The notes beneath the pieces were generated by a model. That model did not search any database. It was given only the letters and a program-made list of their open reading frames with translations, and was not told where the DNA came from. The translations under genes and the position numbers were made by a program. 64,000 bases of DNA, taken from NCBI GenBank assembly GCA_964448725.1, contig CAYVAJ010000004.1, positions 17,535 to 81,534 of the forward strand, read 5' to 3'. Each line of letters begins with the position of its first letter. Within the stretch, counting starts at the first letter, position 1. Origin of the DNA: an uncultured Gammaproteobacteria bacterium. GTDB taxonomy: Bacteria > Patescibacteriota > Microgenomatia > Levybacterales > GWA1-39-11. Positions 12,183 to 26,046 of the stretch are shown in pieces.

Positions 12183-12372
12183 CTTTGATGAAATAACTCA
12201 TTATCTCTGCAGTTTATGCTTGGTATTCTCTCAGTGAAGAGGGCTGTGGAGTTGAGAACTCATGTCTCAATACGGATATGTATCTGTATGTCTCACATTG
12301 GTTTATGCTACTATAATTAATACGTAGTGTAGGCGGTTCAGTGAACCTCAGAATTCATCTGCTGTGATATAT

Positions 12373-12553
12373 GCGGGTGTAGTTGAGTGGTACAATGCTT
12401 CCTTCCCCGCCTGAAATCGCTTTTGCGATGGTAGTTCAAAGGTAGAATGTCTCCTTCCCAAGGAGAAGGTTGAGGGTTCGATTCCCTTCCATCGCTCATG
12501 CATTAGCGGGCAGGCCAAGGAAGAGTTCGTGGATTCAATTCCCATCACCCGCT
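12373..12553 (+). pseudogene. Split tRNA-Gly-like gene with a 109-nt insert at the anticodon loop. Intron-containing or disrupted tRNA.
   Basis: The 5' half GCGGGTGTAGTTGAGTGGTACAATGCTTCCTTCCC (12373-12407) and 3' half AAGGAAGAGTTCGTGGATTCAATTCCCATCACCCGCT (12517-12553) together form a tRNA-Gly-like cloverleaf. The acceptor pairs GCGGGTG/CACCCGC and the anticodon stem pairs CTTCC/GGAAG. The insert ends pair GCCTG/CAGGC. The T-stem has one mismatch. Confidence 0.4.
12425..12496 (+). tRNA. tRNA-Gly (anticodon CCC), no encoded CCA; nested inside the split tRNA-Gly-like gene
   Basis: Manual cloverleaf: acceptor GCGATGG/CCATCGC, D-arm GTTC-AAAGGTA-GAAT, anticodon arm TCTCC-TTCCCAA-GGAGA (CCC), T-arm GAGGG-TTCGATT-CCCTT, discriminator T. 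Confidence 0.75.
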
Positions 12554-12893
12554 CATAGTCTCGACCTTTTTGTGAAACAAAAAGAGACAGACTTATTAAA
12601 TCATAATATACTGTTGGAGAAGTAAAACCAGCTAAAAGGCAGAATTCCATTTGTCCTCGGGTATAAAGAAGACTCTCTAGATACATATCAGGCATTCAAA
12701 CGTGAGAAGCATTGTAAAACTTCCTGGGGTCGTAGGCTATTAAAAAAGTTACTTAACAATCAATAAAATGAAGGTCCACTTCTAGTGGAAAGAATAGAAT
12801 AATTTTGCTACTTGATTTTTTTACAAAATGCTTACTATTATGATGTAGGAGGTGCTTTTAAAGCAAAAAAAACAGCTTTACACCTAATAAATA

Positions 12894-15800
12894 ATGCACT
12901 CCCGCAAAAAAAAGTTTAAAGACTATTGGGAATTCGCTGAACTACAAGACAAAAAAGTCCGCATTGCTATTGCCATCTCTGCTTTAGGACTTTTGCTCTT
13001 TATCGCCTTCGCACTTACTTTTCCTTTTTATGATAATCTCTTTACTCGATTATTTCCGAAATCTCCTTCTCTTGCGGACGTAACAGCTCCAACAGTTGTA
13101 CAGTCAAATACTGCTACCGTTTCTTCTGGGAGTGATGTGTCTATTTCATGGGGGAGTCCAACATCAAATGGAAATTTCCTCATTGCAGTATTAGCAGCGC
13201 AGAGCGGAGATGAAGCATTATCGATATCTCAAGCGCCACAAGGATGGACATTAGTATCGGATACTATTAATGAGGAAGTAAGACAGTGGGTATATGCCTA
13301 TGCGAATGCTCCAGAACAGAGTGGAGAAGTAAAATTCACCCTCTCTTCAGGAGTAAAATCATCACTCGTGGTTGCAGAATATAAAGATGTTGCAAAAGAA
13401 AATGCTATAGAAACTCAGAATTCTTTAGTAGGAAATAATGATTCTCCCACTGGATCTGTTGATCCAAATACTGATTATAATTTAGTAATTGCAGCAGTAA
13501 GTTCGGTTGTAACAAGCAGTGAAAGCGCCAGTTTTAATAATGCTACTAATGACTTTTCTCTTGTAGGTCAAACATCAACAACAGGAGATGCTGTTAATAT
13601 CGCAACTGCATTGTTTAGTTCGTTTGTTGCCAATCAAGAACCTGTTAATAATTCCGTAACTATTGGATCAGGTACTCAATGGATACATACAATGGTAGCT
13701 ATAAAGCCTGTTGTACCTATCCCGACCTATACTCCTATTCCCAGTAAAGAACCAGAACCAACACCAGAGACAGAACCTGAGTTTTTACTTCAAGGATTAG
13801 ATCCTGAAAACACACAACAGAGTGGTCTGAGAAGTCTTGCGCTTGAGAGTACACAAATTTCGGGTACAACCTATTATGTAGATTGTCAAAACGGAAATGA
13901 TAGTAATAATGGAAGATCAGAGGGTGCTGCATGGAAATCATTAAATAAAATTAATAATGCCACATTAAATCCAGGAGATGGAATTCTATTAAAACGAGAT
14001 TGTTCATGGACTGGAACCTTGGATGCTGCGTGGAATGGTACTGCTCAAGAACCTATTACAATCGGTGCATATGGAGAAGGTGTGCTCCCTACGATTAAAT
14101 ATGACGGATCAAAAGGCGGTGGACCAGCTGTTAAAGTATCAGGATCATATGTCGTAATTGATAGTCTGAAAGCTACACTGACCAATCCCAATAGAAGTTC
14201 TGATTGTACATTAGCAGATGGGCAAAAACAGCATTTTGGTTATTATCAAGGCTTTAATTTATCTGGTCATCATCTTACCCTGCAAAACTCAGAGGCTACA
14301 GGCAATTCGTTGGGAGTTTTCACTACAGATTCCAGTCACCATAATAAAATACTGAACAACCATATCCATCATAACGATGGTTTATGGAGAATTGGCCCAA
14401 TTCCTCCAGGATCAATGGGTGGTATGGGTATGAATTTGCATGGCGATGATCATGAAGTTGCACATAATTTCTTTGAAAAAAATGATGCAAATTGTGATCC
14501 CCCAGACCATACGCATAGAGGGTATAGTGCAGCAATTGAGCTATATAATGCTAGTCGTGCGCACGTACATCATAATAAAATGGTAGGACATCGAAAGCAC
14601 TTTGAAATGGGTAAGAATAGCGATGAAATATCTGACGATAATATCTTTGCCTATAATTTAATTGTCAGTAATTTGGCAAATGCAAAAGGTCCTAATATTC
14701 ATGGCGCAGGAAATAAATTCGGTCCTGTTAAAAGGACAACAGTAGTCAATAATACTATATATCTTGTGGGTTCAGGGAATACTCAAGCACTCAATTGTGG
14801 GTGTACAGATGGCGCAACAATACGAAATAATATATTTTGGGCAGAAGAAAAAGTCGCATTTTTTAACGGTACATACACAGAATCTAATAATATTTACTGG
14901 GATAGTGATGGAAATCCAAATGCTCAAAATTTGAGTTTGCACGCTACTTCAAAAAAGACTAATCCGCAGTTTGTGAAGGCTGCTGTCAATGATGGTGACT
15001 TTCGTTTGAAAGCAGGGAGTCCTGCAATTGATGCCGGTATTTCAGTGGGATATGATTTAGACGTTGAAGGAGTATCTGTTCCACAAGGCTCAAAAGTTGA
15101 TATCGGTGCAATTGAATATACTGGTCAGGTTGTAACAACTCCAACCCCAACTGCAAGTACTGTTACCCCTACTCCAGGCGTTCAAGAACCATTCAGTGGT
15201 TCACGGATTTCGCTTCCAGGTACCATCCAAGCAGAAGATTTTGATAATGGCGGTGCTACTGTTGCATATGTTGATAATGATACAGGCAACAATGGGAATA
15301 TATATAGACAAACAGATGTTGATATTGAGGCTACGACTGACACTGGGGGAGGGTATAATCTTGGCTGGACTCGGCCAGGTGAGTGGGTAGAATATAGCGT
15401 TAATGTCTCATACTCAGGTTCTTACACGATAGGAACACGAGTAGCATCAAATGGAGGCGGCGGAGTATTTCATATAGAAGTTGATGGTACAGATGTAACT
15501 GGTCCAATGACCGTGCCAAATACAGGAGGTAATCAAATTTGGCAGACAGTTGAAAAAACAGGTGTACAGCTTACTGCAGGACAACATATTGTTCGTCTCT
15601 CATTTGATAATAATGGCGCAACTCAAGGTGTAGGCAATTTTAATTATATGACCTTTACTTTTGATCCTGGTCCTCAAACGCCGTACACAGGTACTCCTAT
15701 TTCTCTTCCAGGCATAATACAAGCTGAAGACTTTGATAATGGGGGTGTTATGGCTGCTTATTTTGATCAAGATGCAGGCAACAAGGGTAATGTGTATAGG

Positions 15801-18800
15801 GAAACAGATGTTGATATAGAAGCAACGACTGACACTGGTGGAGGGTATAACCTTGCTTGGATGTGGCCTAATGAATGGGTAGAGTATACAGTAAATGTAA
15901 CAGAAACAAGTACATATACCGTTGGAGCACGAGTCGCCTCCAATGGAGGTGGGGGAGTGTTTCATATAGAAGTTGATGGGCAAGATGTAACCGGTTCAAT
16001 GACTGTCCCGAGCACAGGAGGAAATCAGGTTTGGCAAACAGTTGAAAAAACCGGAATTCAATTAAGTGCTGGACAGCATATTATCCGATTGTCAATGGAT
16101 AGCAGTGGAGCACAGCAAGGAATTGCCAATTTTAATTATCTAGAATTTACTCAAGACACATCTACTAGTCCAGTACCATCCACCTCACAGGAATATACAT
16201 TATCCGGATCAGTATATGTCGATGTAAATAGAAATGGGGTAAAAGATACTGATGAATTAGGCCATAACGGAGCTGAGGTTACGGTATCAGGCGGATTATC
16301 AGCTAGTACCAATGCATCCGGGCTTTATACATTAACAGTTCCTGCTGCAGTATATACTGTTACTATTACCATACCTGATGGATATGAGGGAACAACTACA
16401 AATCCATTGTCTATTTCAGTCTCTGCAAATACTTCGGCGAACTTTGGTATTGCCCCAACAGCTACTGGAGGTAGAACAAATTCTGTCTTCACAGTGAATG
16501 CAGCTAAGACAGGTACTGAATTGAATGGACAACCTTTTCAAGTTGTTGGTATTCGTGTATCAAATGCACTTATTAATGACGCTAAAACACAACAACTCAT
16601 AGATAACCTTGATGTATTCAGAACTTATGGTATTAATACCGTTAGCGTTTTCTTCCAAGGTTCACGATTTGGTGACATCAAAGGCTATAGAGAAGATACA
16701 ACACTAAATCCTACCTACGCTGCTCGGATGGCACGAATTATTGAAGAAGCTGATAAACGTAAGATGGTCGTTCTAGTGGGAGTTTTGTATTATGGCGATG
16801 CAACCTTTGCAAAATGGGATAGTTGGGGACAAACTGAGGCAAACAGTGCAGTTGCTAATACTGTTCAGTGGCTCAAAGATAATAATTATCGCAATGTATT
16901 TATCGATGTTGATAACGAACAAATGTCACCGTTTGATAGTCAAAAACTCATTGCAGCTGGAAAAGCAGTTGATGCATCCTATGTAATTGGTTCTGGTGGC
17001 AAAATAACGCCATCAAATGCTGACCTATCTTTGCACCAAGGAGGCAAAAATATAACCGGTAAACCATATATTGAATCTGAAGGAACACCGCAAGGATATT
17101 GGGGTGCATATAGCAGACAGTCAGGAGACACACAATATCGAAATATTGGCATTTATACGAGTGATTTAAAATCTGCATGGTTGTCTGAAACTTCTAGTTT
17201 ATTGAATCAAGGAAAAGGATATATGGGTGCATCAACCTGGTTACAGGCCGACCTTCCAGAGGGACCAAATCACATACCTGGTGGAAATGGGACATCAGCA
17301 GATCCTGGGATTAAATTCTGGTTAGAGCATGTAAAGAGTTTGGTTGGGCCGTATGAGCCATCAGGTATTGGAGAGGAGACTACTCCAACCCCAACTCCAA
17401 GTGCTATTACCCCTACTCCTACTCAACCACCAACTGGGGGAACAGGGGCATTTTTGGAAAACAACGGTCAGCTAGTTATTGAGGTAGAGGATTATAATGA
17501 TATTTTTCCATCTACATTTAATAACTATACACAAACACACAATTGGGAAAAGAAAACAAATATTCCAGACTATAGTGGAAGCGGATTTATGCATAATATA
17601 CCAGATGAGCGAGGAGAGGATGGAGTAGGTCCTAATTCACCTCGAGGAAAAGGTGGACCTGAAATGCGGTATCCAATCAAGATATCAACTCCTGGAACAT
17701 ACAATGTCTGGGTAAGAGGGTATACTACGGGAGGAGAGTCAAACGGAGTACATATCGGGGTTGATGGGGTAATGACAGGTACAGAAGCTGGAGCTTCAAA
17801 TATGTCAGGGTTTAGACCTAAAGAATCGTGGATTTGGGAAAGTGCAAGAAAAGAAGGATATACGCTCCCTGCAACTCTCAATCTTACTGCTGGTTATCAT
17901 ACACTTAATGTCTGGGGAAGAGATGATGGATTTAGAATGGATAAAATAGTATTACGAATAGGAAGTGGTGTCCCATCAGGGACAGGACCTGCCCAGAGTG
18001 CGCGAGAAGCCATACCAACTCCAATAATTACACCAACTCCCACACCTGTGGTTACCACAACTCCCACACCTACTCCAAGTGTTCAAGCACCATTTACGGG
18101 AACTCCTATTTCGTTACCTGGAACAATCCAGGTAGAAGACTTTGATAATGGTGGTGCAAATGTTGCGTACTTTGATACGTCAGCAGGTAATAACGGTGGA
18201 GTATATCGAGATACAGATGTTGATCTTCAAGCTACTACTGATACTGGAGGAGGATATGGTCTTGAGTTTACAAGATCTGGAGAATGGTTAGAGTACACTG
18301 TAGATGTTGCTGAGGGCGGTACTTATGATATTGGTGTACGTGTTGCCTCTAAAGTAGTTGGTGGTGCATTCCATATAGAGATTGATGGGCAAGATGTAAC
18401 TGGGCCGATGTATGTACCAAATACTGGTGATTGGCAAACATGGACAACAATCGAGAAAACAGGTATACAGCTTACTGCAGGAGAACATGTAGTCAGATTA
18501 TCATTAGATAGCAGTGGTGAGCAGGCAGCTATTGGAAATATCAACTATATTACATTCACGAAAGTTGTCACAATTCCTACCTATACACTCTCAGGTACTG
18601 TATATGTAGATGCAAATAATAATGGTATACAAGATACAGATGAGGCTGATTATGCAAATGCAATTATTGAACTTTATGAAGGACCTGAAGCGACAGATAT
18701 TCCTTACCACACAGCAGAAACCAATACAGCCGGAGCGTATACTTTCAACACATTAAATCAAGGAGTATACACAGTATCACTTCTAATTCCTGATGGATAC

Positions 18801-21800
18801 AGTGTTACTACAGCTATCCGTCAAGTAGTCTCGCTTACAGCAGATACTATAGTGAATTTTGGTATCGCATCCACACAAACACCTACTATTACTCCTACTC
18901 CTGTAAGTCCTTCAAATCTTCTAAAGAATGGAGGTCTTGAGAGTAGCACTACTGTTTGGGGGTTATATGGGGGTGCAAGTATAATGCAAGGTACTTCACA
19001 TGGTGGTAGTAAAGCTATTCGTGTAGGTAATGCAAGTGGTGGGGGTGAATCAGGTGCCGAGCAAGCTGTTGCTGCACAGCCAGGAAAGACATACTCACTT
19101 ACTGCCTGGGGTATGATGAGTAATTCAGCTCAGAGTGATAAAGGCGCTGTGGGTATTAAATTTAAGAACAGTGCAGGAGATGTTCTTGGTAATGAAACAT
19201 CCATCTTTATTCCTGAGACTGATTGGACTCAGAAACAAGTGTCTGCAATTGCACCTGCTAACACGGCAAGCGTTGTAACTTATGTATATAAAGAAGTGGG
19301 AGATAATACTTTCTTATACATTGATGACTTTACGCTTACAGAAAGCGGAGAAGTTACTACTCCAACCCCAACATTGACAAATACTCCGACACCTACTGTT
19401 GCACAAAATACACCGACTCCAACGCCAGTACAACTATCTGATTTAGTAGTTAGTGATATAACATGGAGTCCATCTAATGCTACTGTAGGACAAAATGTTA
19501 CTTTTGGTGCTACCTTAAGAAATATTGGATCAGCTGCAACTCCTGATGCAACTGCCCATGGAGTAGCGTTTTATGTGAATGGAGTAAAAGTATCTTGGTC
19601 GATAAATCATAATGCGTCTATTGCACCAGGTGACTCAGTAACAGTCACTGCTAATGGTGGTCCTGAAGGTTCACGATTCTGGACAGCGACAGCAGGTACA
19701 CATGAAATTGAGGCAGTAGTTGATGAGCCTGGCAGGATTACGGAAAGTAATGAGGAAAATAATACTGCAAGCAACCAATTTACCATTGTTGCTGCTCCTA
19801 CGGTTACTCCGACTCCGACATCTGTTCCTACTTACACAGTAGATGGAACTGTATATGTAGATACAAATAAAAATGGTGTGCAAGATACAGATGAGGCAGG
19901 GTATGCAGATGCAGTTGTTATGATATCAACTAACCCTGAAACAGCAGGTATAAGCGATGAAAATGGGCGTTTTATTCTTACTGGAATAAATCAAGGAGTA
20001 TACACAGTTACTCTTTCCGCACCTAATGGGTATACTATCACGACTTCCAATCCAATTGAAGCAGTTGTAACTGCAAATACTACAATCAATTTTGGAATCG
20101 GTCTTATTCCAACTCCAACCCCTACAGCTCCTGTTATAACGCCTACATTAACAACAACTCCTACCCCTACTGCAACAGCTACTCCGATTCCAACTGTTAC
20201 TCCTCTTCCTACGGGTACTCAGTCAGTAACATACTCGGTCCCATGGACAAGTGAAGATGTACAAGAAACAAATACATCATTTACGGTAAATGACACCACT
20301 CTTCGAATTGGTGGATGCGGACAGACAGCTTGTTATACTGGTCTTCGGTTTACGAATATTAACCTGCCTAAAGGTTCTATAATTAATTCTGCATATGTAG
20401 AGTACAATGCAGCCCAAAGTAACTCACTTGCAAATGTAGCGGTAGAGATTGCAGGACATGATTCGGATAATAGTTCGCTTTTCTCTTCATCCAATAAACC
20501 TTCACAAAGAACACTTACAGCTGCTAAAGTGACTCCTCAAACTGATACAGTAGTTGCTGCTAATCAGTGGTATCGTTTAGGTAATATCTCATCAATAGTG
20601 CAAGAAGTCATAGATAGAGACAATTGGCAAACTGGAAATAGTATTTCACTTATTATTCGTGCTACATCTCCAACAGAGCAAGATACAGGAATTCTTGCAC
20701 ATAGTTACGATGGAAATTCTGAGAGAGCACCACGCTTAGTAATTATATATAGTAGTCCGATAGGCGGAGAAGAACCAACAAATACTCCTGTCCCTATTAC
20801 AGAGCCTACTGAAGCACCTATTCCAACGTATATTCTTTCAGGTACTGTCTATGTAGATACCAATAAAAACGGCGTAAAAGATATAGAAGAATCAGGTCAA
20901 AGTAATATAACAGTATCTCTGTCAAATGGAGCATCGGTTTCAACTGATGCACAAGGTAGATATCAATTTACTGATTTAATCCAAGAACTCTATACTGTAA
21001 CTGCAACAGTACCAAATGGATATACATTGACTACTCAGTCATCAATCCCTGTATCACTTATAGCTGATACAAGTGTACACTTTGGAATGGTACAAGTACC
21101 AATAGCCACGGTAACTGCAACATCTGCACCAACCCCTACCCCTATTCCATGTTCACTTGTATCAGCCAAATGGCAAACAACCAATAATCAAATAGATGAA
21201 GGTGAGATTGTAGGACTTGAAGTTATAACCTCAGGAAACTGTGTTGGAGAAGAGCTGGAGTTTGAGGTACGAGAGGACGATGGAATTATGGGGTCTGATG
21301 CAACAAATATTATTCCAGCAACAGTACCAATAATCGGAAATAACGCACAGACTTCATGGATAGTTGAATGGCAGCAGGATTGTATGGGATTTGCACTTTG
21401 CCAAACTCCGGAATATTACTATATTGTTAGAATTGTGGGAACCACAACTGAGATACGCTCAACAAATCCAACACTTAAAGTGCAGCGTACCAACAAAGCA
21501 CGGTTTGTGACTATTCCTCATGTGGATGTGACTCAAGATACTGTGAAAATTACATGGAAGACAAGCCATGATATGTCATCACAGATTAGCTATGGATTAT
21601 CTGCAGAATCCCTTGTAAGTACAGATGAGATAAATACCAATATACGAGCAGCTGATCATGCTATTACAATTGACAACTTACTTCCTTGTACTGCGTATCG
21701 GTATCAGGTACGTTCACGGGAAATAACTGGTGATATGGTAGAGAGCCCTTTTGCTCAATTTATAACAAAAGGTTGTGAAGGAAACTCGTCAGTACTTGCA

Positions 21801-22514
21801 TTATCTACCACTGATGTTGATCCTGCTAGTGGAGGAGTTGTAGAGTTAATAGATGAGGAAACAGATAAGGGTATATTGCTCCAGGTGCCTGCTGGGTTTA
21901 GCAGTCGGCCAGCACAATTCCAAATGAAAAAATTAGAACAATCTCCTGTATTATCAGAATTATCTGTACCATCAGGAAGGTCACTCGTTGGATCACACAT
22001 TTATAACTTAGCTGCACTAACAAATATTTCATCAAAATCAGCAACTTTTGAAGAACCGATCTTAGTTACGATAAATTATTTGCCATCTGAAGTATCTAAT
22101 CTTGCAACATTGGCTATGTATCGTAATAATGGACAGCAATGGACACAGTTAGAAAACTGTACACATAACCAAACAGAAGCTTCAATTTCCTGTAATACTA
22201 CTGCATTCTCGGTATTTGCTCTATTCTCTGAAACACCTGCTAGTGAGACAAATCAACCGCCTAAAAACCAAAACTCAAATTCATCTGGAGGAAATTCTTC
22301 AACTGGGGGATCAGGAGGTTCTTCAGGAGACTCTTCAGGTGGTTCATCAAGTACTGCAAACGGACCAGATTTGAATAAAGATGGAAAAATAAATATTTTC
22401 GACCTTAGTATATTGTTAAGCCAATGGAATAGATCAGGGAGCGGTGACTTGAATAATGATGGAAAAGTGAACATCTTTGATCTCTCACAGCTTCTTGTAA
22501 AATGGACTCGGTAG
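12894..22514 (+). CDS. Giant (3206 aa) secreted or surface multidomain carbohydrate-binding/active protein with a C-terminal dockerin
   Basis: Single uninterrupted frame. Features read from the translation: N-terminal TM helix; parallel beta-helix-like region (NNHIHHNDG...); three CBM6/CBM35-like repeats; four Cna-B/SdrD-like modules (Y.LSG.VYVD.N.NG..DTDE); a GH-A (TIM-barrel glycosidase)-like segment; a CARDB-like module; an FN3-like module; Pro/Thr linkers; a C-terminal double dockerin repeat. Confidence 0.8.
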   Translation: MHSRKKKFKDYWEFAELQDKKVRIAIAISALGLLLFIAFALTFPFYDNLFTRLFPKSPSLADVTAPTVVQSNTATVSSGSDVSISWGSPTSNGNFLIAVLAAQSGDEALSISQAPQGWTLVSDTINEEVRQWVYAYANAPEQSGEVKFTLSSGVKSSLVVAEYKDVAKENAIETQNSLVGNNDSPTGSVDPNTDYNLVIAAVSSVVTSSESASFNNATNDFSLVGQTSTTGDAVNIATALFSSFVANQEPVNNSVTIGSGTQWIHTMVAIKPVVPIPTYTPIPSKEPEPTPETEPEFLLQGLDPENTQQSGLRSLALESTQISGTTYYVDCQNGNDSNNGRSEGAAWKSLNKINNATLNPGDGILLKRDCSWTGTLDAAWNGTAQEPITIGAYGEGVLPTIKYDGSKGGGPAVKVSGSYVVIDSLKATLTNPNRSSDCTLADGQKQHFGYYQGFNLSGHHLTLQNSEATGNSLGVFTTDSSHHNKILNNHIHHNDGLWRIGPIPPGSMGGMGMNLHGDDHEVAHNFFEKNDANCDPPDHTHRGYSAAIELYNASRAHVHHNKMVGHRKHFEMGKNSDEISDDNIFAYNLIVSNLANAKGPNIHGAGNKFGPVKRTTVVNNTIYLVGSGNTQALNCGCTDGATIRNNIFWAEEKVAFFNGTYTESNNIYWDSDGNPNAQNLSLHATSKKTNPQFVKAAVNDGDFRLKAGSPAIDAGISVGYDLDVEGVSVPQGSKVDIGAIEYTGQVVTTPTPTASTVTPTPGVQEPFSGSRISLPGTIQAEDFDNGGATVAYVDNDTGNNGNIYRQTDVDIEATTDTGGGYNLGWTRPGEWVEYSVNVSYSGSYTIGTRVASNGGGGVFHIEVDGTDVTGPMTVPNTGGNQIWQTVEKTGVQLTAGQHIVRLSFDNNGATQGVGNFNYMTFTFDPGPQTPYTGTPISLPGIIQAEDFDNGGVMAAYFDQDAGNKGNVYRETDVDIEATTDTGGGYNLAWMWPNEWVEYTVNVTETSTYTVGARVASNGGGGVFHIEVDGQDVTGSMTVPSTGGNQVWQTVEKTGIQLSAGQHIIRLSMDSSGAQQGIANFNYLEFTQDTSTSPVPSTSQEYTLSGSVYVDVNRNGVKDTDELGHNGAEVTVSGGLSASTNASGLYTLTVPAAVYTVTITIPDGYEGTTTNPLSISVSANTSANFGIAPTATGGRTNSVFTVNAAKTGTELNGQPFQVVGIRVSNALINDAKTQQLIDNLDVFRTYGINTVSVFFQGSRFGDIKGYREDTTLNPTYAARMARIIEEADKRKMVVLVGVLYYGDATFAKWDSWGQTEANSAVANTVQWLKDNNYRNVFIDVDNEQMSPFDSQKLIAAGKAVDASYVIGSGGKITPSNADLSLHQGGKNITGKPYIESEGTPQGYWGAYSRQSGDTQYRNIGIYTSDLKSAWLSETSSLLNQGKGYMGASTWLQADLPEGPNHIPGGNGTSADPGIKFWLEHVKSLVGPYEPSGIGEETTPTPTPSAITPTPTQPPTGGTGAFLENNGQLVIEVEDYNDIFPSTFNNYTQTHNWEKKTNIPDYSGSGFMHNIPDERGEDGVGPNSPRGKGGPEMRYPIKISTPGTYNVWVRGYTTGGESNGVHIGVDGVMTGTEAGASNMSGFRPKESWIWESARKEGYTLPATLNLTAGYHTLNVWGRDDGFRMDKIVLRIGSGVPSGTGPAQSAREAIPTPIITPTPTPVVTTTPTPTPSVQAPFTGTPISLPGTIQVEDFDNGGANVAYFDTSAGNNGGVYRDTDVDLQATTDTGGGYGLEFTRSGEWLEYTVDVAEGGTYDIGVRVASKVVGGAFHIEIDGQDVTGPMYVPNTGDWQTWTTIEKTGIQLTAGEHVVRLSLDSSGEQAAIGNINYITFTKVVTIPTYTLSGTVYVDANNNGIQDTDEADYANAIIELYEGPEATDIPYHTAETNTAGAYTFNTLNQGVYTVSLLIPDGYSVTTAIRQVVSLTADTIVNFGIASTQTPTITPTPVSPSNLLKNGGLESSTTVWGLYGGASIMQGTSHGGSKAIRVGNASGGGESGAEQAVAAQPGKTYSLTAWGMMSNSAQSDKGAVGIKFKNSAGDVLGNETSIFIPETDWTQKQVSAIAPANTASVVTYVYKEVGDNTFLYIDDFTLTESGEVTTPTPTLTNTPTPTVAQNTPTPTPVQLSDLVVSDITWSPSNATVGQNVTFGATLRNIGSAATPDATAHGVAFYVNGVKVSWSINHNASIAPGDSVTVTANGGPEGSRFWTATAGTHEIEAVVDEPGRITESNEENNTASNQFTIVAAPTVTPTPTSVPTYTVDGTVYVDTNKNGVQDTDEAGYADAVVMISTNPETAGISDENGRFILTGINQGVYTVTLSAPNGYTITTSNPIEAVVTANTTINFGIGLIPTPTPTAPVITPTLTTTPTPTATATPIPTVTPLPTGTQSVTYSVPWTSEDVQETNTSFTVNDTTLRIGGCGQTACYTGLRFTNINLPKGSIINSAYVEYNAAQSNSLANVAVEIAGHDSDNSSLFSSSNKPSQRTLTAAKVTPQTDTVVAANQWYRLGNISSIVQEVIDRDNWQTGNSISLIIRATSPTEQDTGILAHSYDGNSERAPRLVIIYSSPIGGEEPTNTPVPITEPTEAPIPTYILSGTVYVDTNKNGVKDIEESGQSNITVSLSNGASVSTDAQGRYQFTDLIQELYTVTATVPNGYTLTTQSSIPVSLIADTSVHFGMVQVPIATVTATSAPTPTPIPCSLVSAKWQTTNNQIDEGEIVGLEVITSGNCVGEELEFEVREDDGIMGSDATNIIPATVPIIGNNAQTSWIVEWQQDCMGFALCQTPEYYYIVRIVGTTTEIRSTNPTLKVQRTNKARFVTIPHVDVTQDTVKITWKTSHDMSSQISYGLSAESLVSTDEINTNIRAADHAITIDNLLPCTAYRYQVRSREITGDMVESPFAQFITKGCEGNSSVLALSTTDVDPASGGVVELIDEETDKGILLQVPAGFSSRPAQFQMKKLEQSPVLSELSVPSGRSLVGSHIYNLAALTNISSKSATFEEPILVTINYLPSEVSNLATLAMYRNNGQQWTQLENCTHNQTEASISCNTTAFSVFALFSETPASETNQPPKNQNSNSSGGNSSTGGSGGSSGDSSGGSSSTANGPDLNKDGKINIFDLSILLSQWNRSGSGDLNNDGKVNIFDLSQLLVKWTR
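15207..15662 (+). repeat. CBM6/CBM35-like module, copy 1 (within the giant ORF)
   Basis: ISLPGTIQAEDFDNGG...GGGYNLGWTRPGEWVEYSVNV...GGGGVFHIEVDG...NFNYMTFTF. The copies are about 60-70% identical. Confidence 0.5.
15699..16152 (+). repeat. CBM6/CBM35-like module, copy 2
   Basis: ISLPGIIQAEDFDNGG...GGGYNLAWMWPNEWVEYTVNV...GGGGVFHIEVDG...NFNYLEFT. Confidence 0.5.
18108..18563 (+). repeat. CBM6/CBM35-like module, copy 3
   Basis: ISLPGTIQVEDFDNGG...GGGYGLEFTRSGEWLEYTVDV...GGAFHIEIDG...NINYITFTK. Confidence 0.5.
22368..22511 (+). other. Dockerin-like module (two Ca-binding repeats) at the C-terminus of the giant protein
   Basis: DLNKDGKINIFDLSILLSQW...DLNNDGKVNIFDLSQLLVKW matches the dockerin type-I duplicated D.N.DG.VN..D pattern. 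Confidence 0.6.
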
Positions 22515-22673
22515 ATACGATACTCCGCCAGTATTACTAAGTTTATTCTTAATTTAAGACCCAATTTTATTTATCTTGATGTGATTATATATATGAGGTA
22601 TTGGTAAGTACAGCCTAAAGATGTCAGAGTAACGAATAGTGTATGGTATTCAATAATGAGGGGTAAAACAAAA

Positions 22674-22698
22674 ATATACCCTCTTTAAGAGGGTATAT
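22674..22698. terminator. Bidirectional hairpin terminator between convergent genes
   Basis: Perfect palindrome ATATACCCTCTT-TA-AGAGGGTATAT flanked by A/T runs. It lies between the giant ORF's stop (22514) and the minus-strand ORF's stop (22720). Confidence 0.5.
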
Positions 22699-22719
22699 TT
22701 ACTATGTTGAAGTTAAATA

Positions 22720-23169
22720 TTATTCTACAATTACTGTTCCTTTTCTCTCCGGGTGGAAATAATCATGGTATGTATATTCTCCTGGTTGTGAAAAAATGTG
22801 CATTACCGTAGATCCTTTAGGAATTTCTCCTAAATTTAACTCAGGATATTTTTGGTTAGTAGGATGATCATCTGAATTTACGGAAACTTTTTCATCAGTT
22901 GAATTATTTGCCCACCGAACTGCCCCACCTCGTTTAATAGTGACTGTTTCAGGGATAAAACCATCGTTTGTAAGTTCAACTGATACTTCTTGAGGAAGAT
23001 TAGCAGTTGGTTGTGTATCTATTTGATTCCTAATAAAGGCAAAAATACCTACTGCAAGCAAAATAATAACTACTACAATAACAACAATAAATCGCTTGCT
23101 CTTATTTGATGTTGGTTGATTTAGTGTTTGTGAAACCTCTTGTTCTGGCATAAAATCACCCCCTCTCAA
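22720..23169 (-). CDS. Membrane-anchored small protein with a cupredoxin-like C-terminal domain (tentative)
   Basis: 149 aa. N-terminal TM helix (FIVVIVVVIILLAVGIFAFI). The C-terminal region GGAVRW...STVMHIFSQPGEYTYHDYFHP resembles plastocyanin/cupredoxin-fold proteins, but no Cys ligand is present. Confidence 0.3.
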   Translation of the reverse strand: MRGGDFMPEQEVSQTLNQPTSNKSKRFIVVIVVVIILLAVGIFAFIRNQIDTQPTANLPQEVSVELTNDGFIPETVTIKRGGAVRWANNSTDEKVSVNSDDHPTNQKYPELNLGEIPKGSTVMHIFSQPGEYTYHDYFHPERKGTVIVE

Positions 23170-24363
23170 CTAGTATTGTGGAAAGTTGTTTCGATATTTA
23201 CGGATAATTATAATGAGAGCTATCAGAGCTAATACTGTTGGAATTGCAATAAGTGCTGCTGTAAGAAGAGTAGAATTTTTGTCTGGATCTATTGCGGCAC
23301 CTGCGACTTTAATCTCAAACTCCTGTGGTTGAGCAGGAGAATTTCCATCTTCTGGGATATTTTCGAGTACATCAATAGATGAAGAATATGTAGCATCTCC
23401 ATCTTTCACTACTACTACATGCTCTCCAGGAGGAAGATTTCCAACTGTTGCAATACCATTGGCATCTGTCTGTACTGTTACCGGACCATTAGGGCTTGAG
23501 ACTGTTACCTGCGCTGAGGCAAGTGGTGCATTATGTTCATTACGAACATTGATGATTGCCGAGAATCCTAATGTACTAAATGTAAAATCAGAACTTGTTG
23601 ATTCCTGGCCTGTCTCCGATCCTTTCCCTATTACTCGCAGATGATAGGTGGTTCCTGGTATTAAAAGCGCAGAGGAGAGTGTTGCAGTGTGGGTCTGTGT
23701 AAGCGTTTCAGTACTCTCAGTTACTCCATATTTATTCGTAAGCCCGTACTCAATAATGGAATAAGAAGGACGGTCTGTAGTCCATGATACAAGTGCTGAA
23801 GAATATCCGATATCACTTATTTCTACACCATTAATAGTAGGTGGCATTTCAGATGCTTTGGGAGTAGGTGTTGAGGCTGGTTTATTAGAAAAAGTAATTG
23901 TACTTGCCGATCCTCCACCATATATATTTGCCTGATCACTTGCCCGTACTAATGCAGTACCTCCGCTTACAGACACTGTTCCGCTTCCAGAATTAGCTTT
24001 ACTTCTAAAGGTGACCGTTGCGATAAGCCGATCACCTGACACTGGATTGATGTTTCCACGACTGATTGAGATAGAGCCTCCTCCGCCACTAGAAGGGGCT
24101 TCAATGGCAAAAGCACTGCCTCCTCCGCTAATACCTATAAAATCAAGCTTATCTGCTGGATAGGTAAGATTTACAGTAACTCCATTTACCGCATCTCCTC
24201 CAGTGTTTGTTCTCACTGAAAGAGAAAAACGCTCTCCAACACCAACTGTTCTACTCGCAGGAGAGACATATACAGAACCGGCAGCTTGCACAGGAGTAGT
24301 AAAAGGGGCTATTAATAGAAAGTATACAGAAAATAGAAGAAAAAAACGAATAAGTTTTTTCAT
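23170..24363 (-). CDS. Signal-peptide surface protein with a cohesin-like domain, an FN3-like domain, a Cna-B-like domain and a C-terminal TM anchor
   Basis: 397 aa. Signal peptide MKKLIRFFLLFSVYFLLIAPFTTPVQA. Cohesin-like beta-sandwich pattern VYVSPASRTVGVGERFSLSVRTNTGGDAVNGVTVNLTYPADKLDFIGI...LIATVTFRSK. FN3-like region (VEISDIGYSSALVSWTT...YHLRV). C-terminal hydrophobic anchor followed by RKYRNN. Confidence 0.5.
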   Translation of the reverse strand: MKKLIRFFLLFSVYFLLIAPFTTPVQAAGSVYVSPASRTVGVGERFSLSVRTNTGGDAVNGVTVNLTYPADKLDFIGISGGGSAFAIEAPSSGGGGSISISRGNINPVSGDRLIATVTFRSKANSGSGTVSVSGGTALVRASDQANIYGGGSASTITFSNKPASTPTPKASEMPPTINGVEISDIGYSSALVSWTTDRPSYSIIEYGLTNKYGVTESTETLTQTHTATLSSALLIPGTTYHLRVIGKGSETGQESTSSDFTFSTLGFSAIINVRNEHNAPLASAQVTVSSPNGPVTVQTDANGIATVGNLPPGEHVVVVKDGDATYSSSIDVLENIPEDGNSPAQPQEFEIKVAGAAIDPDKNSTLLTAALIAIPTVLALIALIIIIRKYRNNFPQY

Positions 24364-24387: not shown

Positions 24388-26046
24388 TTAAGATAGTTTT
24401 TTTTCATTTGTCAATAAGCGATATGTGGGTGTGTTCTTGTGGACTAGTAATTCAAGCGTAATGTATTTGCTGCTGTCGTCATAATTCACCTGAACAGGTA
24501 TCTGGAGATAGTGTGAAATCATTTTTGCAATATGACCTTCAAGTCCTGATCCTAATTGCATTGTCTGCACGGAGATATTTTCGTAATTTTTGGAAAAAAG
24601 AGCATCTTTGTCTTGTTCAGAAAATGAAGATGCACGTGCAGATATTTTAATGCTTACTGTCTCTTCAAAATCCTGTTCAACTGCTACTATAACGTTTTTT
24701 TGGCTATCAGATGCGGAGAGAAGGACGGCCATCTCAACTAATTTTTGAACGAGTAGACCAGTATGAGTGACATCACAGTTAGCAGAAAAGAATGGTCCAG
24801 TTGCCATATCAGGTGAAAATTTAAATATTTTTGTCATAAAAGGTGGTAAATTTTGATCTGAGAAATTGGTAAGAGTAAATGTGAGCGTGACATGAAAAAG
24901 TGCCGCAAATTCCTGCTCAGCATTGACTGTGTCACGGCAAAGCTGTGCGATATCAACAACTGATTTTTTTTCTACCAATCCATGTGCGGTAAGAGATTTT
25001 AATTTTTCAATATCACGTTGATGTTTGTTTATGAGAAGGAATTGACCTGCAAGCTCAGTCAGTCCTTTGTTATATAACTGAGTTTTTAGATTTTCACTTA
25101 ATGCCTCAAGCTTGAGTGAAGATTCATCGTATTCAGGAATAGTATTATTCTGTGTCTGGTGTACTGTCTGATCTCGTATGATAAATGTAATGCTTTGCTC
25201 AAATTCTTCAATTATGCTAATTGGTTTTATTGTCATACAGACCTTTTTACGGGGGGCAGAAGTTGATATAAGAAGTAGATCACAGATATCAGTTGGCTTG
25301 TGATTTTTAACAAGAGTAGTGAGCTCAAGGTGACTTGAATCAATAAGCTTTCCATTTTCATCTTTTAAAAATAGTACATCAAAAAGTTTTTTACGTTGCA
25401 TTTCAGAGAAGCTCTTATTCAGGACACGCTGAGCTGTTTCATTCGCTGAAAGAATATGTGTCTCTATATCAGTAACAAATACGAGTTCATTTACATCTTT
25501 TAAAATTGATTCCTCTACTTTTACCTGATATTTCAGAAGATCAAACACGCGATCTTTAATGTGATATTGATGGGCAAGAATCTGCGCAATCGGCAGAAAT
25601 GCAACAAATGAAATTCCATACACAATAAGCGTTGTTGGCTGTTCCAATACTAACTGTAGACTCTCAGGGTTAAGAAGTGTGTAAGTAGTGAGATTTATGA
25701 GTGAAAATATCAAAAAAAGAATAGAATTAGAAATACTGAAAATAAAGCTAATCCCCAAAAATGCTAAATGAAAAAATATAAAGAAAGGACTTTCTAATGC
25801 TCCGGTATACAATATCAGAAGCTGAATAAGTAAATTAATAATAAAAAGAAACGTCCATCTTCCCCAATTACCAATTCTTTTTTTAATGGATGAAATCCAA
25901 AACCCGTTAATGGAGAGTACAATGAGGAAACCTAAAAGTATAATTATCCGGAAAACAATTTCAGGCGATATATGCAGAAAGTTATAAACAAAAAGAATAA
26001 AAGAGGTAGAAGAGTAGATACATGATGCAATCGCAAAGTTGCGCAT
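24388..26046 (-). CDS. Membrane sensor histidine kinase-like protein (6 TM + PAS-like + degenerate HisKA/HATPase)
   Basis: 552 aa. About 180 aa of TM helices. PAS-like segment VFVTDIETHILSANETAQRVL. C-terminal GSGLEGHIAKMI (G2-box-like) and F..F D-box-like motifs. The motifs are degenerate. Confidence 0.4.
   Translation of the reverse strand: MRNFAIASCIYSSTSFILFVYNFLHISPEIVFRIIILLGFLIVLSINGFWISSIKKRIGNWGRWTFLFIINLLIQLLILYTGALESPFFIFFHLAFLGISFIFSISNSILFLIFSLINLTTYTLLNPESLQLVLEQPTTLIVYGISFVAFLPIAQILAHQYHIKDRVFDLLKYQVKVEESILKDVNELVFVTDIETHILSANETAQRVLNKSFSEMQRKKLFDVLFLKDENGKLIDSSHLELTTLVKNHKPTDICDLLLISTSAPRKKVCMTIKPISIIEEFEQSITFIIRDQTVHQTQNNTIPEYDESSLKLEALSENLKTQLYNKGLTELAGQFLLINKHQRDIEKLKSLTAHGLVEKKSVVDIAQLCRDTVNAEQEFAALFHVTLTFTLTNFSDQNLPPFMTKIFKFSPDMATGPFFSANCDVTHTGLLVQKLVEMAVLLSASDSQKNVIVAVEQDFEETVSIKISARASSFSEQDKDALFSKNYENISVQTMQLGSGLEGHIAKMISHYLQIPVQVNYDDSSKYITLELLVHKNTPTYRLLTNEKKLS

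What the first reader, a model, noticed from the sequence alone, without database searches (positions are those of the whole stretch)
12894..24363. Convergent dockerin-bearing giant protein and cohesin-like anchored protein: candidate cohesin-dockerin surface display pair
The 3206-aa ORF ends in two tandem dockerin-like Ca-binding repeats, DLNKDGKINIFDLSILL and DLNNDGKVNIFDLSQLL. A convergent gene 650 bp downstream encodes a signal-peptide protein, and its first domain follows the cohesin beta-sandwich pattern. That protein continues with an FN3-like module and a C-terminal TM anchor. This is the cellulosome-style logic of an enzyme carrying a dockerin and a membrane-anchored scaffoldin carrying a cohesin, here in a small low-GC genome. 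It could tether a 350-kDa carbohydrate-binding protein to the cell surface.
Basis: partly seen in the sequence, partly recalled or inferred. Interest (0 to 1): 0.8.

Follow-up and report, generated by a model that had tools for sequence, protein, structure and literature searches.

The report
Cohesin anchor with dockerin-tagged giant protein
In this ultra-small (candidate phyla radiation) bacterium, a 340-kDa sugar-binding surface protein ends in a dockerin plug and the neighbouring gene encodes a membrane-anchored cohesin socket. This is a minimal, non-cellulosomal form of the cohesin-dockerin system, and the same two-gene cassette recurs across related genomes.

Summary
The 3206-aa ORF (12894-22514, +) ends in two Ca-loop/helix repeats that match dockerins. 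They model with pLDDT 88-97 as a paired EF-hand-like module. The convergent 397-aa protein (23170-24363, -) is signal peptide, cohesin, FN3, prealbumin-like domain and C-terminal TM helix. Its N-domain models at pLDDT 95, and the 29 best PDB fold matches are all cohesins.

Pairing is supported indirectly but strongly. In 14 of 15 informative related loci (Levybacteria-like, Saccharimonadia, Woykebacteria), a dockerin-bearing gene lies directly beside the cohesin-anchor gene, although the cargo varies (beta-helix glycanases, S8 and reprolysin-like proteases, lyases, discoidin). Dockerin position 11, a known specificity determinant, covaries with the cohesin: F goes with A/S/T at cohesin residue 111, and R goes with E111 plus D34. 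One contig carries both types, each next to its match.

A linker-fused AlphaFold model did not dock confidently, so binding remains inferred.

Cohesin/dockerin genes, and a "two-subunit cellulosome", have already been reported in CPR genomes. This is a new member of a known kind: moderately interesting, not a cellulosome in the strict sense.

The parts
12894..22514 (+). Gene for the 3206-aa (340 kDa, pI 4.6) multimodular surface protein, the dockerin-tagged cargo
   Evidence: ORF and translation. Pfam domains along its whole length. The exact protein is on record in NCBI. Mass.
12960..13028 (+). N-terminal hydrophobic segment (res 23-45) after a basic 22-residue stretch: a signal anchor or a long signal peptide
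   Evidence: Best 19-mer hydropathy 2.62, with no other TM-like segment in the protein. The cargo proteins of related loci have the same layout.
13791..15134 (+). Right-handed beta-helix region (res 300-747), a putative glycanase/lyase module ending in a choice-of-anchor Q domain
   Evidence: Pfam Beta_helix 23.5 bits, sub-threshold. PDB sequence hits to the N-terminal part of GH136 lacto-N-biosidases (E 7e-15) and to an alginate lyase. NCBIfam choice_anch_Q 40.4 bits at res 691-742.
15180..16043 (+). Two tandem CBM6/CBM35 carbohydrate-binding modules
   Evidence: Pfam CBM_6 at 1e-35 and CBM_35_2 at 1.4e-23, two stretches each.
16371..17375 (+). Weakly GH5-like (TIM-barrel?) region, activity not established
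   Evidence: Pfam Cellulase 18.9 bits, below the 23.5 cut-off. No PDB sequence hit.
17448..18008 (+). GH115_C-like beta-sandwich module
   Evidence: Pfam GH115_C 48.2 bits.
18210..18563 (+). Third CBM6 module (res 1773-1890)
   Evidence: Best CBM_6 stretch.
18915..19352 (+). CBM4_9 carbohydrate-binding module
   Evidence: Pfam CBM_4_9 42.4 bits.
19437..19772 (+). CARDB domain (res 2182-2293)
   Evidence: Pfam CARDB 61.8 bits.
20844..21041 (+). One of four SdrD_B-type Ca-binding spacer domains. The others lie around res 1110, 1906 and 2323.
   Evidence: Pfam SdrD_B at 1e-39, four stretches. D-x-N-x-N-G motifs at 16221, 18609, 19860 and 20856.
21519..21746 (+). FN3-like domain (res 2876-2951)
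   Evidence: Pfam fn3 25.3 bits and Pur_ac_phosph_N 30.6 bits.
22245..22367 (+). Gly/Ser/Asn-rich flexible linker before the dockerin
   Evidence: Sequence. pLDDT falls to 52-65 in the part included in the fused model.
22368..22511 (+). Compact type-I-like dockerin: two 12-residue Ca loops, each followed by a 9-residue helix, with a repeat period of 26 aa, ending at the C-terminus
   Evidence: AF2 gives pLDDT 88-97, helices at model residues 169-177 and 195-203, and a beta-bridge between the loops. A family profile hits only this ORF in the window.
22672..22700 (.). Perfect 13-bp-stem palindrome between the convergent genes, a likely (bidirectional) intrinsic terminator
   Evidence: Terminator scan. 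Sequence.
22720..23169 (-). Cupredoxin-like single-TM protein (probable ATG start at 23151) with no cysteine.
   Evidence: Pfam Cupredoxin_1 38.9 bits. Translation. The same neighbour occurs in L001, L002 and L003.
23170..24363 (-). Gene for the 397-aa (41 kDa) membrane-anchored cohesin protein, the anchor
   Evidence: Family alignment A1.
24283..24363 (-). Sec-type signal peptide (res 1-27, VQA|A)
   Evidence: Sequence. The position is conserved in 21 homologues.
23878..24282 (-). Cohesin domain (res 28-162)
   Evidence: AF2 pLDDT 95.2, pTM 0.89, all-beta. Foldseek PDB ranks 1-29 are all cohesins. Profile versus PDB. Pfam Cohesin hit in 19 of 21 family members.
23572..23841 (-). FN3 domain (res 175-264)
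   Evidence: Pfam fn3 25.7 bits and Pur_ac_phosph_N 24.7 bits.
23368..23568 (-). CarboxypepD_reg / prealbumin-like beta-sandwich (res 266-332)
   Evidence: Pfam CarboxypepD_reg 31.8 bits and SpaA 23.4 bits.
23203..23274 (-). C-terminal transmembrane helix (res ~364-387), followed by the basic tail RKYRNNFPQY. No LPXTG motif.
   Evidence: Hydropathy up to 3.03. Sequence. Conserved in the family.

Best explanation
The two convergent genes encode a cognate, non-cellulosomal cohesin-dockerin pair of a Levybacteria-like CPR bacterium.

The anchor. The 397-aa protein is exported by Sec and stays in the membrane through its C-terminal helix. It holds a single cohesin at the tip of a two-domain (FN3 plus prealbumin-like) stalk.

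The cargo. The 340-kDa protein is a chain of a beta-helix glycanase/lyase-like module, four CBMs (three CBM6/35 and one CBM4_9), Ca-binding SdrD_B spacers and other beta-sandwich modules. It is exported through its N-terminal hydrophobic segment. After a ~40-residue Gly/Ser/Asn-rich linker, it ends in a compact Ca-dependent dockerin.

The interaction. The dockerin plugs non-covalently into the cohesin. This fixes the C-terminal end of the giant protein to the cell surface: its only tether if the N-terminal segment is cleaved, a second tether if it is not. A polysaccharide-binding and -degrading array is thereby kept on the cell. Both dockerin repeats carry the same recognition residues (Ile-Phe at positions 10-11), so either repeat could bind (dual binding mode).

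Shown computationally: the domain identities, the topology signals, the conserved adjacency and the covariation.

Inferred: physical binding, Ca dependence, the fate of the N-terminal segment, and the substrate.
For: 1. Cohesin. AF2 pLDDT 95.2. Foldseek PDB ranks 1-29 are all cohesins, best E 2.6e-10, TM 0.82 to 1g1k/2vn5. Profile versus PDB. Pfam Cohesin in 19 of 21 homologues.

2. Dockerin. Canonical D/N pattern. Pfam 22.4 bits. The top PDB hits are dockerins. Modelled at pLDDT 88-97 as loop-helix x2 with an inter-loop beta-bridge. It is 60-74% identical to dockerins that Pfam/NCBI annotate as Dockerin_1.

3. Uniqueness. There is only one cohesin and one dockerin in 64 kb, 1.4 kb apart.

4. 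Adjacency. A dockerin-ending gene lies next to the orthologous cohesin-anchor gene in L003/L004, L007, L008, L010, L011, L012, L016, L017, L018, L019 (twice), L020 and the P0016 locus. With the window, that is 14 of 15 informative cases, with intergenic gaps of about 2-90 bp in the co-oriented cases, and the cargo domains differ.

5. Covariation.
- Dockerin position 11 is R in 4 pairs and F in 8.
- Cohesin residue 111 is E in all 4 R pairs and A/S/T in all 8 F pairs.
- Only 8 of 135 cohesin columns separate the two classes. These are residue 34 (N to D) and a cluster at 111-124.
- L019 carries both classes in tandem, each dockerin beside the matching cohesin.
- Positions 10/11 are established specificity determinants (PMC8063739).

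6. Topology. The anchor has a signal peptide and a C-terminal TM helix. The cargo has a single N-terminal hydrophobic segment.
Against: - No direct evidence of binding. The single-chain fused AF2 model gave pTM 0.65, close to what the cohesin alone would contribute (~0.60), so the relative placement was not confident. Paired rows could not be used in that alignment.
- Both window domains fall just below the Pfam gathering scores.
- The dockerin is atypically compact: 26-27-aa period, with about 8 profile positions missing between the repeats.
- The giant protein has its own N-terminal TM-like segment, so a dockerin is not obviously needed for surface retention.
- The covariation involves R-type cohesins that may be a single clade, so it may reflect one evolutionary event. 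Fisher p ~0.002 is not corrected for phylogeny.
- L002 has no strong dockerin next to its cohesin gene.
- The rest of the genome was not seen, and other dockerins or cohesins may exist there.
Confidence: 0.72

Rival explanations
1. Both domains are real, but the two proteins are not each other's main partners. The anchor's cohesin would display other dockerin-tagged enzymes encoded elsewhere in the genome, or the giant's dockerin would bind a different cohesin, and the adjacency would be incidental.
For: The compact dockerin occurs on many unrelated secreted enzymes in CPR metagenomes: GH5, GDSL lipase, subtilase, metallophosphatase, CAP. The cohesin subfamily is large (359 representatives at E <= 1e-30) and includes multi-cohesin proteins. 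F-type dockerins are nearly identical across loci, so one F-type cohesin could accept many cargos. Only 64 kb of the genome was seen.
Against: Adjacency holds in 14 of 15 informative loci despite changing cargo. Dockerin and cohesin types are matched in the tandem cassettes of L019. Only one dockerin and one cohesin occur in this 64-kb window. Promiscuity towards further cargos would add to the neighbour pairing rather than replace it.
Confidence: 0.12
2. The interaction is real but acts in trans, or structurally rather than for display. Because the giant protein is already held by an uncleaved N-terminal anchor, the dockerin would bind cohesins on a neighbouring cell (cell-cell or symbiont-host adhesion). 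Alternatively, it would pin the far end down so that the protein lies as an arch or coat over the surface.
For: An N-terminal hydrophobic segment after a long basic stretch, with no nearby AxA site, is present in the window cargo and in all 7 other cargos examined. Proteins that carry both a cohesin and a dockerin exist (P0034, P0050), which suggests chain or lattice formation. CPR bacteria are commonly episymbionts, and a dockerin-domain protein is essential in Southlakia (PMC10633639).
Against: Nothing distinguishes cis from trans binding in sequence. The cohesin anchor has no feature pointing to another cell. The cargo domains are hydrolase/CBM-like rather than adhesin-only.
Confidence: 0.1
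3. The C-terminal repeats are generic EF-hand-type Ca-binding motifs that stabilise the protein or bind something other than a cohesin. On this reading, the 397-aa protein's N-domain is merely a cohesin-fold adhesin or Ig-like module.
For: Both Pfam scores are sub-threshold in the window sequences. The giant protein contains four other Ca-binding D-x-N-x-N-G motifs in its SdrD_B domains. Dockerin-like modules without known cohesin partners are widespread (own knowledge: Peer et al. 2009). A CLIPPER adhesin domain and integrin domains appear lower in the fold list (ranks 30 and 34).
Against: The repeats hit dockerins, not generic EF-hands, as top PDB matches. Orthologous modules exceed the Pfam Dockerin_1 threshold at 31.8-39 bits. 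The conserved adjacency and the position-11/E111 covariation are hard to explain without contact.
Confidence: 0.05

Closest known systems
Type I cohesin-dockerin pairs of mesophilic clostridia (C. cellulolyticum CipC/Cel5A, PDB 2VN5/2VN6, 1G1K; C. acetobutylicum CaCohA2-Doc0917, 6KGC-6KGF)
   Same: These are the best structural and profile matches for the cohesin (TM 0.76-0.82). The dockerin has two near-identical repeats with hydrophobic residues at positions 10/11, which implies a possible dual binding mode. Own knowledge: C. cellulolyticum dockerins also carry hydrophobic residues there.
   Different: Sequence identity to these cohesins is only 16-18%. The dockerin is ~8 residues shorter between repeats (26-27-aa period). 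There is one cohesin instead of a multi-cohesin scaffoldin, no CBM3, and no clear cellulases.
Single-cohesin cell-surface anchoring proteins of cellulosomes (R. flavefaciens ScaE, PDB 2ZF9/4IU3; C. thermocellum SdbA; own knowledge for their anchoring modes)
   Same: One cohesin on a cell-bound protein receives the C-terminal dockerin of a very large modular protein. ScaE cohesins are among the fold hits (ranks 27-29 and 43).
   Different: ScaE is attached to the wall by sortase, and SdbA by SLH repeats. Here the anchor is a C-terminal TM helix below an FN3 plus prealbumin-like stalk. The partner is an enzyme/CBM chain, not a scaffoldin with further cohesins.
Non-cellulosomal cohesin-dockerin systems: C. 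perfringens glycoside-hydrolase complexes (PDB 2VO8, 2JH2, 2W1N cohesin-FN3) and the Archaeoglobus fulgidus cohesin (2XDH)
   Same: Cohesin-dockerin modules join large multimodular carbohydrate-active proteins outside any cellulose context. The cohesin is followed by FN3, as in 2W1N. All four structures are significant fold hits (ranks 11, 14, 15 and 18).
   Different: Those cohesins sit within secreted enzymes or in an archaeal protein and are not on a dedicated membrane anchor. No conserved cargo-anchor gene cassette has been described for them, to my knowledge.
'Simple two-subunit cellulosome' annotated in the Saccharibacteria genome T. rhizospherense (Starr et al. 2018, PMC6031116); cohesin/dockerin genes expressed in Ca. 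Shapirobacterales (PMC9123182)
   Same: The same radiation (CPR) and the same idea of a minimal cohesin-plus-dockerin pair. Relatives of the window's anchor occur in Saccharimonadales/Saccharibacteria and Woykebacteria.
   Different: Those reports are genome-annotation remarks that assume cellulose degradation. In the texts I read, they give no domain architecture, adjacency statistics or specificity analysis. Here the cargos include proteases and non-cellulase glycanases.

Membership tests
Dockerin (type I, Pfam PF00404) | Two tandem segments, each a 12-residue EF-hand-like Ca loop (D/N at positions 1, 3, 5, 9, 12) followed by a helix | tested here: met
   DLNKDGKINIFD and DLNNDGKVNIFD, each followed by LS(I/Q)LL..W. 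AF2 gives helices 169-177 and 195-203 after each loop, pLDDT 88-97.
Dockerin (type I, Pfam PF00404) | Score at or above the Pfam gathering threshold (22.9 bits) | tested here: inconclusive
   The window sequence scores 22.4 bits, E 1.4e-4, which is 0.5 bit short. The adjacent-cargo dockerins of L003, L007, L008 and L012 score 31.8-39.0 bits. The relatives carry precomputed PF00404.
Dockerin (type I, Pfam PF00404) | Canonical length (~60-70 aa) with a linker/third helix between the repeats | tested here: not met
   The repeat period is 26 aa here and 27 aa in 7 relatives. 42 residues align to 50 profile positions. In 4FL4 the two matched stretches begin about 30 residues apart. This is a compact variant.
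Dockerin (type I, Pfam PF00404) | Ca2+-dependent folding and binding to a cohesin | not testable with these tools
   Only indirect support: adjacency and covariation. The fused AF2 model was inconclusive (pTM 0.65).
Cohesin (Pfam PF00963) | Nine-stranded flattened beta-sandwich (jelly-roll) of ~140 residues | tested here: met
   The AF2 model is all-beta, pLDDT 95.2, pTM 0.89. Foldseek PDB ranks 1-29 are all cohesins, TM up to 0.82, rmsd 2.4-2.5 A.
Cohesin (Pfam PF00963) | Score at or above the Pfam gathering threshold (24.1 bits) | tested here: inconclusive
   The window protein scores 17.5 bits, or 21.7 bits for the domain alone. 19 of 21 homologues hit Cohesin at E < 0.01, best 1.6e-9. The L007 orthologue scores 32.6 bits. 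The family profile hits PDB cohesins at E 1.5e-3 to 5e-3.
Cohesin (Pfam PF00963) | Binds a dockerin on its 8-3-6-5 face | not testable with these tools
   No coordinates or PAE are returned by the prediction tool. The class-specific cohesin residues (34 and 111-124) were found by covariation only.
Cellulosome (system) | Scaffoldin with several cohesins that integrates several enzymes | tested here: not met
   One cohesin in the 397-aa protein, and one cohesin plus one dockerin in 64 kb. Multi-cohesin relatives exist elsewhere.
Cellulosome (system) | Dockerin-borne cellulases (GH48/GH9/GH5) and a cellulose-binding CBM3 on the scaffoldin | tested here: not met
   Only a sub-threshold GH5-like stretch (18.9 against 23.5 bits). 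The CBMs are families 6/35 and 4_9 and sit on the cargo. The anchor has no CBM.
Cellulosome (system) | Cell-surface attachment through SLH repeats or a sortase signal | tested here: not met
   No SLH or LPXTG. Instead there is a C-terminal TM helix plus a basic tail.
CPR cargo-anchor cassette (family defined here) | SP-cohesin-FN3-prealbumin-like-TM protein encoded next to a gene ending in a compact dockerin | tested here: met
   The architecture is shared by 21 homologues. Adjacency holds in 14 of 15 informative loci. The window and L003 have the convergent variant, with a cupredoxin gene in between.

The most novel reading that the evidence does not exclude
CPR/Patescibacteria may use a general, modular 'cargo-anchor' cassette. 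In it, a membrane-anchored single cohesin is encoded beside the dockerin-tagged hydrolase it displays: glycanase, lyase, S8 or reprolysin-like protease, or a giant CBM array.

At least two orthogonal specificity classes would exist:
- dockerin F11 with cohesin A/S/T111 and N34;
- dockerin R11 with cohesin E111 and D34.

These classes would let several cassettes coexist in one cell without cross-talk. That would make cohesin-dockerin display a main way in which these ultra-small episymbionts arm their surface to bind and digest host or environmental polymers. It would not be a cellulose-degrading device.
Probability: 0.4. Interest if true: 0.65.

Novelty: new member of a known kind. Interest (0 to 1): 0.45.

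Why it matters
CPR bacteria have tiny genomes and depend on other cells, and how they attach to and feed on partners is largely unknown. A dockerin-domain protein is essential in the one genetically tractable Saccharibacterium (PMC10633639), but no partner was named in that paper.

This locus, with its conserved counterparts, gives a concrete and testable receptor-ligand pair: two small recombinant modules, with predicted specificity-switch residues. It also shows that the 'cellulosome' label used in CPR genome papers is probably a misnomer for a broader surface-display system whose cargos include proteases.

The compact 48-residue dockerin and the matched F/A and R/E classes could also serve as orthogonal parts for designer protein assemblies.

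It does not reveal a new principle. Cohesin-dockerin anchoring, including non-cellulosomal cases, is well established.

Tried and rejected
1. Paired cohesin+dockerin alignment for AF2 (A3).
2. First block alignment (A4). MAFFT spread the dockerin-only rows over the cohesin columns, so it was discarded. A5 still had one misaligned row. A6 was clean and was used.
3. Fused cohesin-linker-dockerin AF2 model. Both domains were confident, but pTM was 0.65 and no PAE or coordinates were available. It cannot count for or against the complex.
4. Catalytic assignment of the giant protein. The GH5-like stretch is sub-threshold with no PDB hit. The beta-helix matches only the N-terminal cap of GH136 enzymes and an alginate lyase. 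No specific activity was assigned.
5. NCBIfam gave no name for the anchor protein or for the 552-aa neighbour.
6. Southlakia's essential dockerin-domain protein SEML1_0315. Its listed neighbours are an alpha/beta hydrolase and a tRNA, and no cohesin is mentioned. I did not establish any link to this cassette.
7. The C-terminus of the 3577-aa giant protein in L002 lies outside the fetched locus, so whether it carries a dockerin is unknown.
8. A true cellulosome was rejected: single cohesin, no CBM3, no SLH or sortase signal, no clear cellulase.
9. A phage or mobile-element origin was considered. The context is chromosomal housekeeping genes (CTP synthase, MurT, Pol X, M32 peptidase, tRNAs) and is syntenic with a 452-kb contig.

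Full report
**Setting**

The window has 33-41% G+C and holds housekeeping genes: CTP synthase, a MurT-like ligase, Pol X, M32 and M48 peptidases, LemA and four tRNAs. Its CTP synthase is 86% identical to proteins named Candidatus Levybacteria, and 93% identical to one on a 452-kb contig of GCA_964537315.1 that shares gene order with the window. Relatives of the anchor protein come from Saccharimonadales/Saccharibacteria and Woykebacteria MAGs.

**The observation**

ORF 12894-22514 (+) encodes 3206 aa, 340 kDa. Its last 48 residues are two repeats, DLNKDGKINIFDLSILLSQW and DLNNDGKVNIFDLSQLLVKW. They are 15/20 identical and have Asp/Asn at loop positions 1, 3, 5, 9 and 12.

ORF 23170-24363 (-) is convergent. 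It encodes a 397-aa protein with these parts:
- a Sec signal peptide;
- a beta-rich N-domain;
- FN3;
- a CarboxypepD_reg/prealbumin-like domain;
- a C-terminal TM helix with a basic tail.

Two things were missed. The 655 bp between the genes contain a cupredoxin-like, single-TM, cysteine-free protein gene (22720-23169, -), which abuts the cohesin gene. A perfect 13-bp-stem terminator-like palindrome follows at 22672-22700. The giant protein also has an N-terminal hydrophobic segment (res 23-45) behind a basic stretch.

**Is the N-domain a cohesin?**

For the window protein alone, Pfam Cohesin is sub-threshold: 17.5 bits for the whole protein and 21.7 for the domain, against a cut-off of 24.1. 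The family settles the question.
- 21 homologues share the whole architecture.
- 19 of 21 N-domains hit Cohesin at E < 0.01, best 1.6e-9.
- The profile finds six PDB chains at E 1.5e-3 to 5e-3. Four are named scaffoldin cohesins (6kgc, 6kg8, 2vn5, 1g1k). Two are 141-143-residue chains deposited as "Endoglucanase".
- AlphaFold2 with the family alignment gives an all-beta model with pLDDT 95.2 and pTM 0.89.
- Foldseek against the PDB returns cohesins at ranks 1-29. The best hit is E 2.6e-10, with TM 0.82 and rmsd 2.5 A to the C. cellulolyticum cohesin. Non-cellulosomal cohesins from A. fulgidus and C. perfringens are also among the hits.

**Is the C-terminus a dockerin?**

- Pfam Dockerin_1 gives 22.4 bits, E 1.4e-4, against a cut-off of 22.9.
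- phmmer against PDB sequences ranks type I dockerins first: 4fl4, 2mte, 1daq, 2y3n.
- Proteins sharing this module at 60-74% identity almost all carry precomputed PF00404. Some are named "dockerin type I domain-containing protein" by NCBI.
- The equivalent modules in related loci score 31.8-39 bits.
- In a fused model (below), the module has pLDDT 88-97. It shows two nine-residue helices, each after a 12-residue loop, and a beta-bridge between the loops, which is the EF-hand-pair geometry.

It is a compact variant. The repeat period is 26 aa here and 27 aa in seven relatives, and about eight profile positions between the repeats are absent. The second refutation criterion is not met either.

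**Are the two partners?**

Direct modelling was limited. A single-chain fusion (cohesin, 23 native linker residues, dockerin) with a block alignment gave confident domains but pTM 0.65. The cohesin alone would contribute about 0.60, and a firmly docked pair would give about 0.75. No PAE or coordinates are returned. This result is inconclusive.

The genomic evidence is much stronger.

1. Family profiles find exactly one cohesin and one dockerin in the 64 kb.

2. Among related loci, a gene ending in the compact dockerin lies directly beside the cohesin-anchor gene in L003/L004, L007, L008, L010, L011, L012, L016, L017, L018, L019 (two cassettes), L020 and the P0016 locus.
   - L003/L004 has the convergent layout behind a cupredoxin gene, as in the window. 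The others are co-oriented and upstream, with gaps of about 2-90 bp.
   - With the window, that makes 14 of 15 informative cases. L001 and L009 are cut by contig ends, and L002 is the exception.
   - Outside these adjacent genes, the ~190 kb of non-duplicate sequence searched held only two or three further dockerin matches. Chance adjacency is therefore very unlikely.

3. The cargo changes while the pairing stays. Cargos include:
   - beta-helix plus Big_7;
   - CBM6 plus a lyase-like domain;
   - discoidin;
   - S8 proteases;
   - reprolysin-like metalloproteases;
   - Big_7 arrays.

4. Dockerin position 11 is Phe in eight pairs and Arg in four. Positions 10/11 are the accepted specificity determinants (PMC8063739). 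Every Arg-type dockerin sits beside a cohesin with Glu at residue 111 (domain numbering; A137 of the full window protein), Asp at residue 34, and a two-residue-shorter following loop. Every Phe-type dockerin sits beside a cohesin with Ala/Ser/Thr at 111 and Asn at 34. Only 8 of 135 cohesin columns separate the classes.

5. Contig L019 carries both classes in tandem, each dockerin next to its matching cohesin.

The gain of Arg on one side and of two acidic residues on the other is what a contact would predict. The Arg-type cohesins may be one clade, however, so the uncorrected Fisher p of ~0.002 overstates independence.

**What the cargo is**

The giant protein contains the following modules:
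- a right-handed beta-helix module, whose N-terminal cap resembles GH136 lacto-N-biosidases and an alginate lyase, and which ends in a choice-of-anchor Q domain;
- three CBM6/35 modules;
- one CBM4_9;
- a GH115_C-like sandwich;
- CARDB;
- four SdrD_B Ca-binding spacers;
- FN3;
- a weak GH5-like stretch;
- several unassigned modules, joined by Pro/Thr linkers.

It is a polysaccharide-binding and probably polysaccharide-cleaving array. No cellulase is evident.

**Mechanism proposed**

The anchor is a type I membrane protein that presents one cohesin on a two-domain stalk. The cargo is exported and, via a ~40-residue flexible linker, plugs its Ca-folded dockerin into the cohesin. Both repeats carry Ile-Phe at positions 10/11, so either could bind.

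Whether this is the only tether depends on whether the cargo's N-terminal segment is cleaved, and that is undetermined. All eight cargos examined share such a segment, and several have an NPPY motif before it. A both-ends-tethered or trans (cell-cell) arrangement is therefore a live alternative.

**Comparison with what is known**

It works like a type I cohesin-dockerin pair and like single-cohesin anchoring proteins (ScaE, SdbA). It is not a cellulosome: one cohesin, no CBM3, no SLH or sortase signal, and no clear cellulase. It is closest in spirit to non-cellulosomal pairs such as those of C. perfringens hydrolases.

Cohesin/dockerin genes have already been noted in CPR genomes:
- a "simple, two-subunit cellulosome" in a Saccharibacterium (PMC6031116);
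- expressed cohesin and dockerin genes in Shapirobacterales, and mention of Roizmanbacterium (PMC9123182);
- an essential dockerin-domain protein in Southlakia (PMC10633639).

The cohesin subfamily is large: 359 50%-identity representatives at E <= 1e-30, some with up to nine cohesins.

**Verdict**

It is a new member of a known kind with some variant traits: a compact dockerin, a TM anchor, and a conserved cargo-anchor cassette with matched specificity classes. I found no description of the cassette or the covariation in the papers searched. These give a modest amount of novelty and a very testable hypothesis. Interest is 0.45.

Noticed in passing
window 22720-23169 (-): Cupredoxin-like single-TM protein (Pfam Cupredoxin_1, 38.9 bits) with no cysteine, so it cannot form a classical type-1 copper site. 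It abuts the cohesin gene, and the same neighbour occurs in L001, L002 and L003. Its role, and any link to the cohesin anchor, are unknown.
   Followed up: partly
window 24388-26046 (-): 552-aa protein with about five N-terminal TM segments, a weak PAS hit and a histidine-kinase-like but unassigned C-terminus. It lies 24 nt upstream of the cohesin gene, and synteny is conserved in L001-L003. It may be part of the same operon.
   Followed up: partly
L019 1-5615: Two tandem cargo-anchor cassettes on one contig. An F-type dockerin precedes an A111/N34 cohesin, and an R-type dockerin (on a reprolysin-like protease) precedes an E111/D34 cohesin. This looks like two orthogonal specificities in one genome.
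   Followed up: yes
L003 11840-21217 (-): The counterpart of the giant dockerin gene in GCA_964537315.1 is split into three overlapping ORFs (11840-12745, 12298-18609, 18566-21217). These are frameshifts, assembly errors or a pseudogene. It also has an internal dockerin-like match at 20546-20692.
   Followed up: no
L003/L006 and L008 (record titles): Taxon labels look wrong. The 'Gammaproteobacteria' MAG has a CTP synthase 93% identical to the window's, which is Levybacteria-like. The 'Nanoarchaeia archaeon' contig carries bacterial nusG-rplA-rplJ-rplL and def-fmt genes.
   Followed up: yes
L013 5678-8599; proteins P0056, P0193: True multi-cohesin proteins of the same cohesin subfamily exist in CPR metagenomes: at least 4 tandem cohesins in a Saccharimonadales contig, and up to 9 in a 2276-aa protein. 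Some relatives may therefore build larger assemblies.
   Followed up: no
proteins P0034 (299 aa), P0050 (512 aa): These proteins carry both a cohesin of this subfamily and the compact dockerin in one polypeptide. They could act as adaptors or self-polymerise.
   Followed up: no
N-termini of cargo proteins (P0030, P0036; L017 6517-, L018 7316-, L019 1459-): A conserved basic stretch with an (I/L)NPPY motif lies just before the single N-terminal TM segment of many dockerin-tagged cargos. The window's giant protein lacks it. It may be a lineage-specific export or sorting signal.
   Followed up: no
window 22672-22700: Perfect palindrome AAATATACCCTCTTAAAGAGGGTATATTT (shown 5'->3' on the - strand; 13-bp stem, 3-nt loop) between the convergent genes. 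It is followed by a T-run on the - strand and is a likely bidirectional terminator.
   Followed up: partly
window 26125-27909 (-): 594-aa MATCAP/DUF1704-like putative carboxypeptidase (Pfam 64 bits). It sits between CTP synthase and the 552-aa gene and is absent at that position in the syntenic L003.
   Followed up: no
window 12348-12695 (-): This 115-aa ORF overlaps tRNA-Gly (12425-12497, +) and is almost certainly spurious.
   Followed up: no
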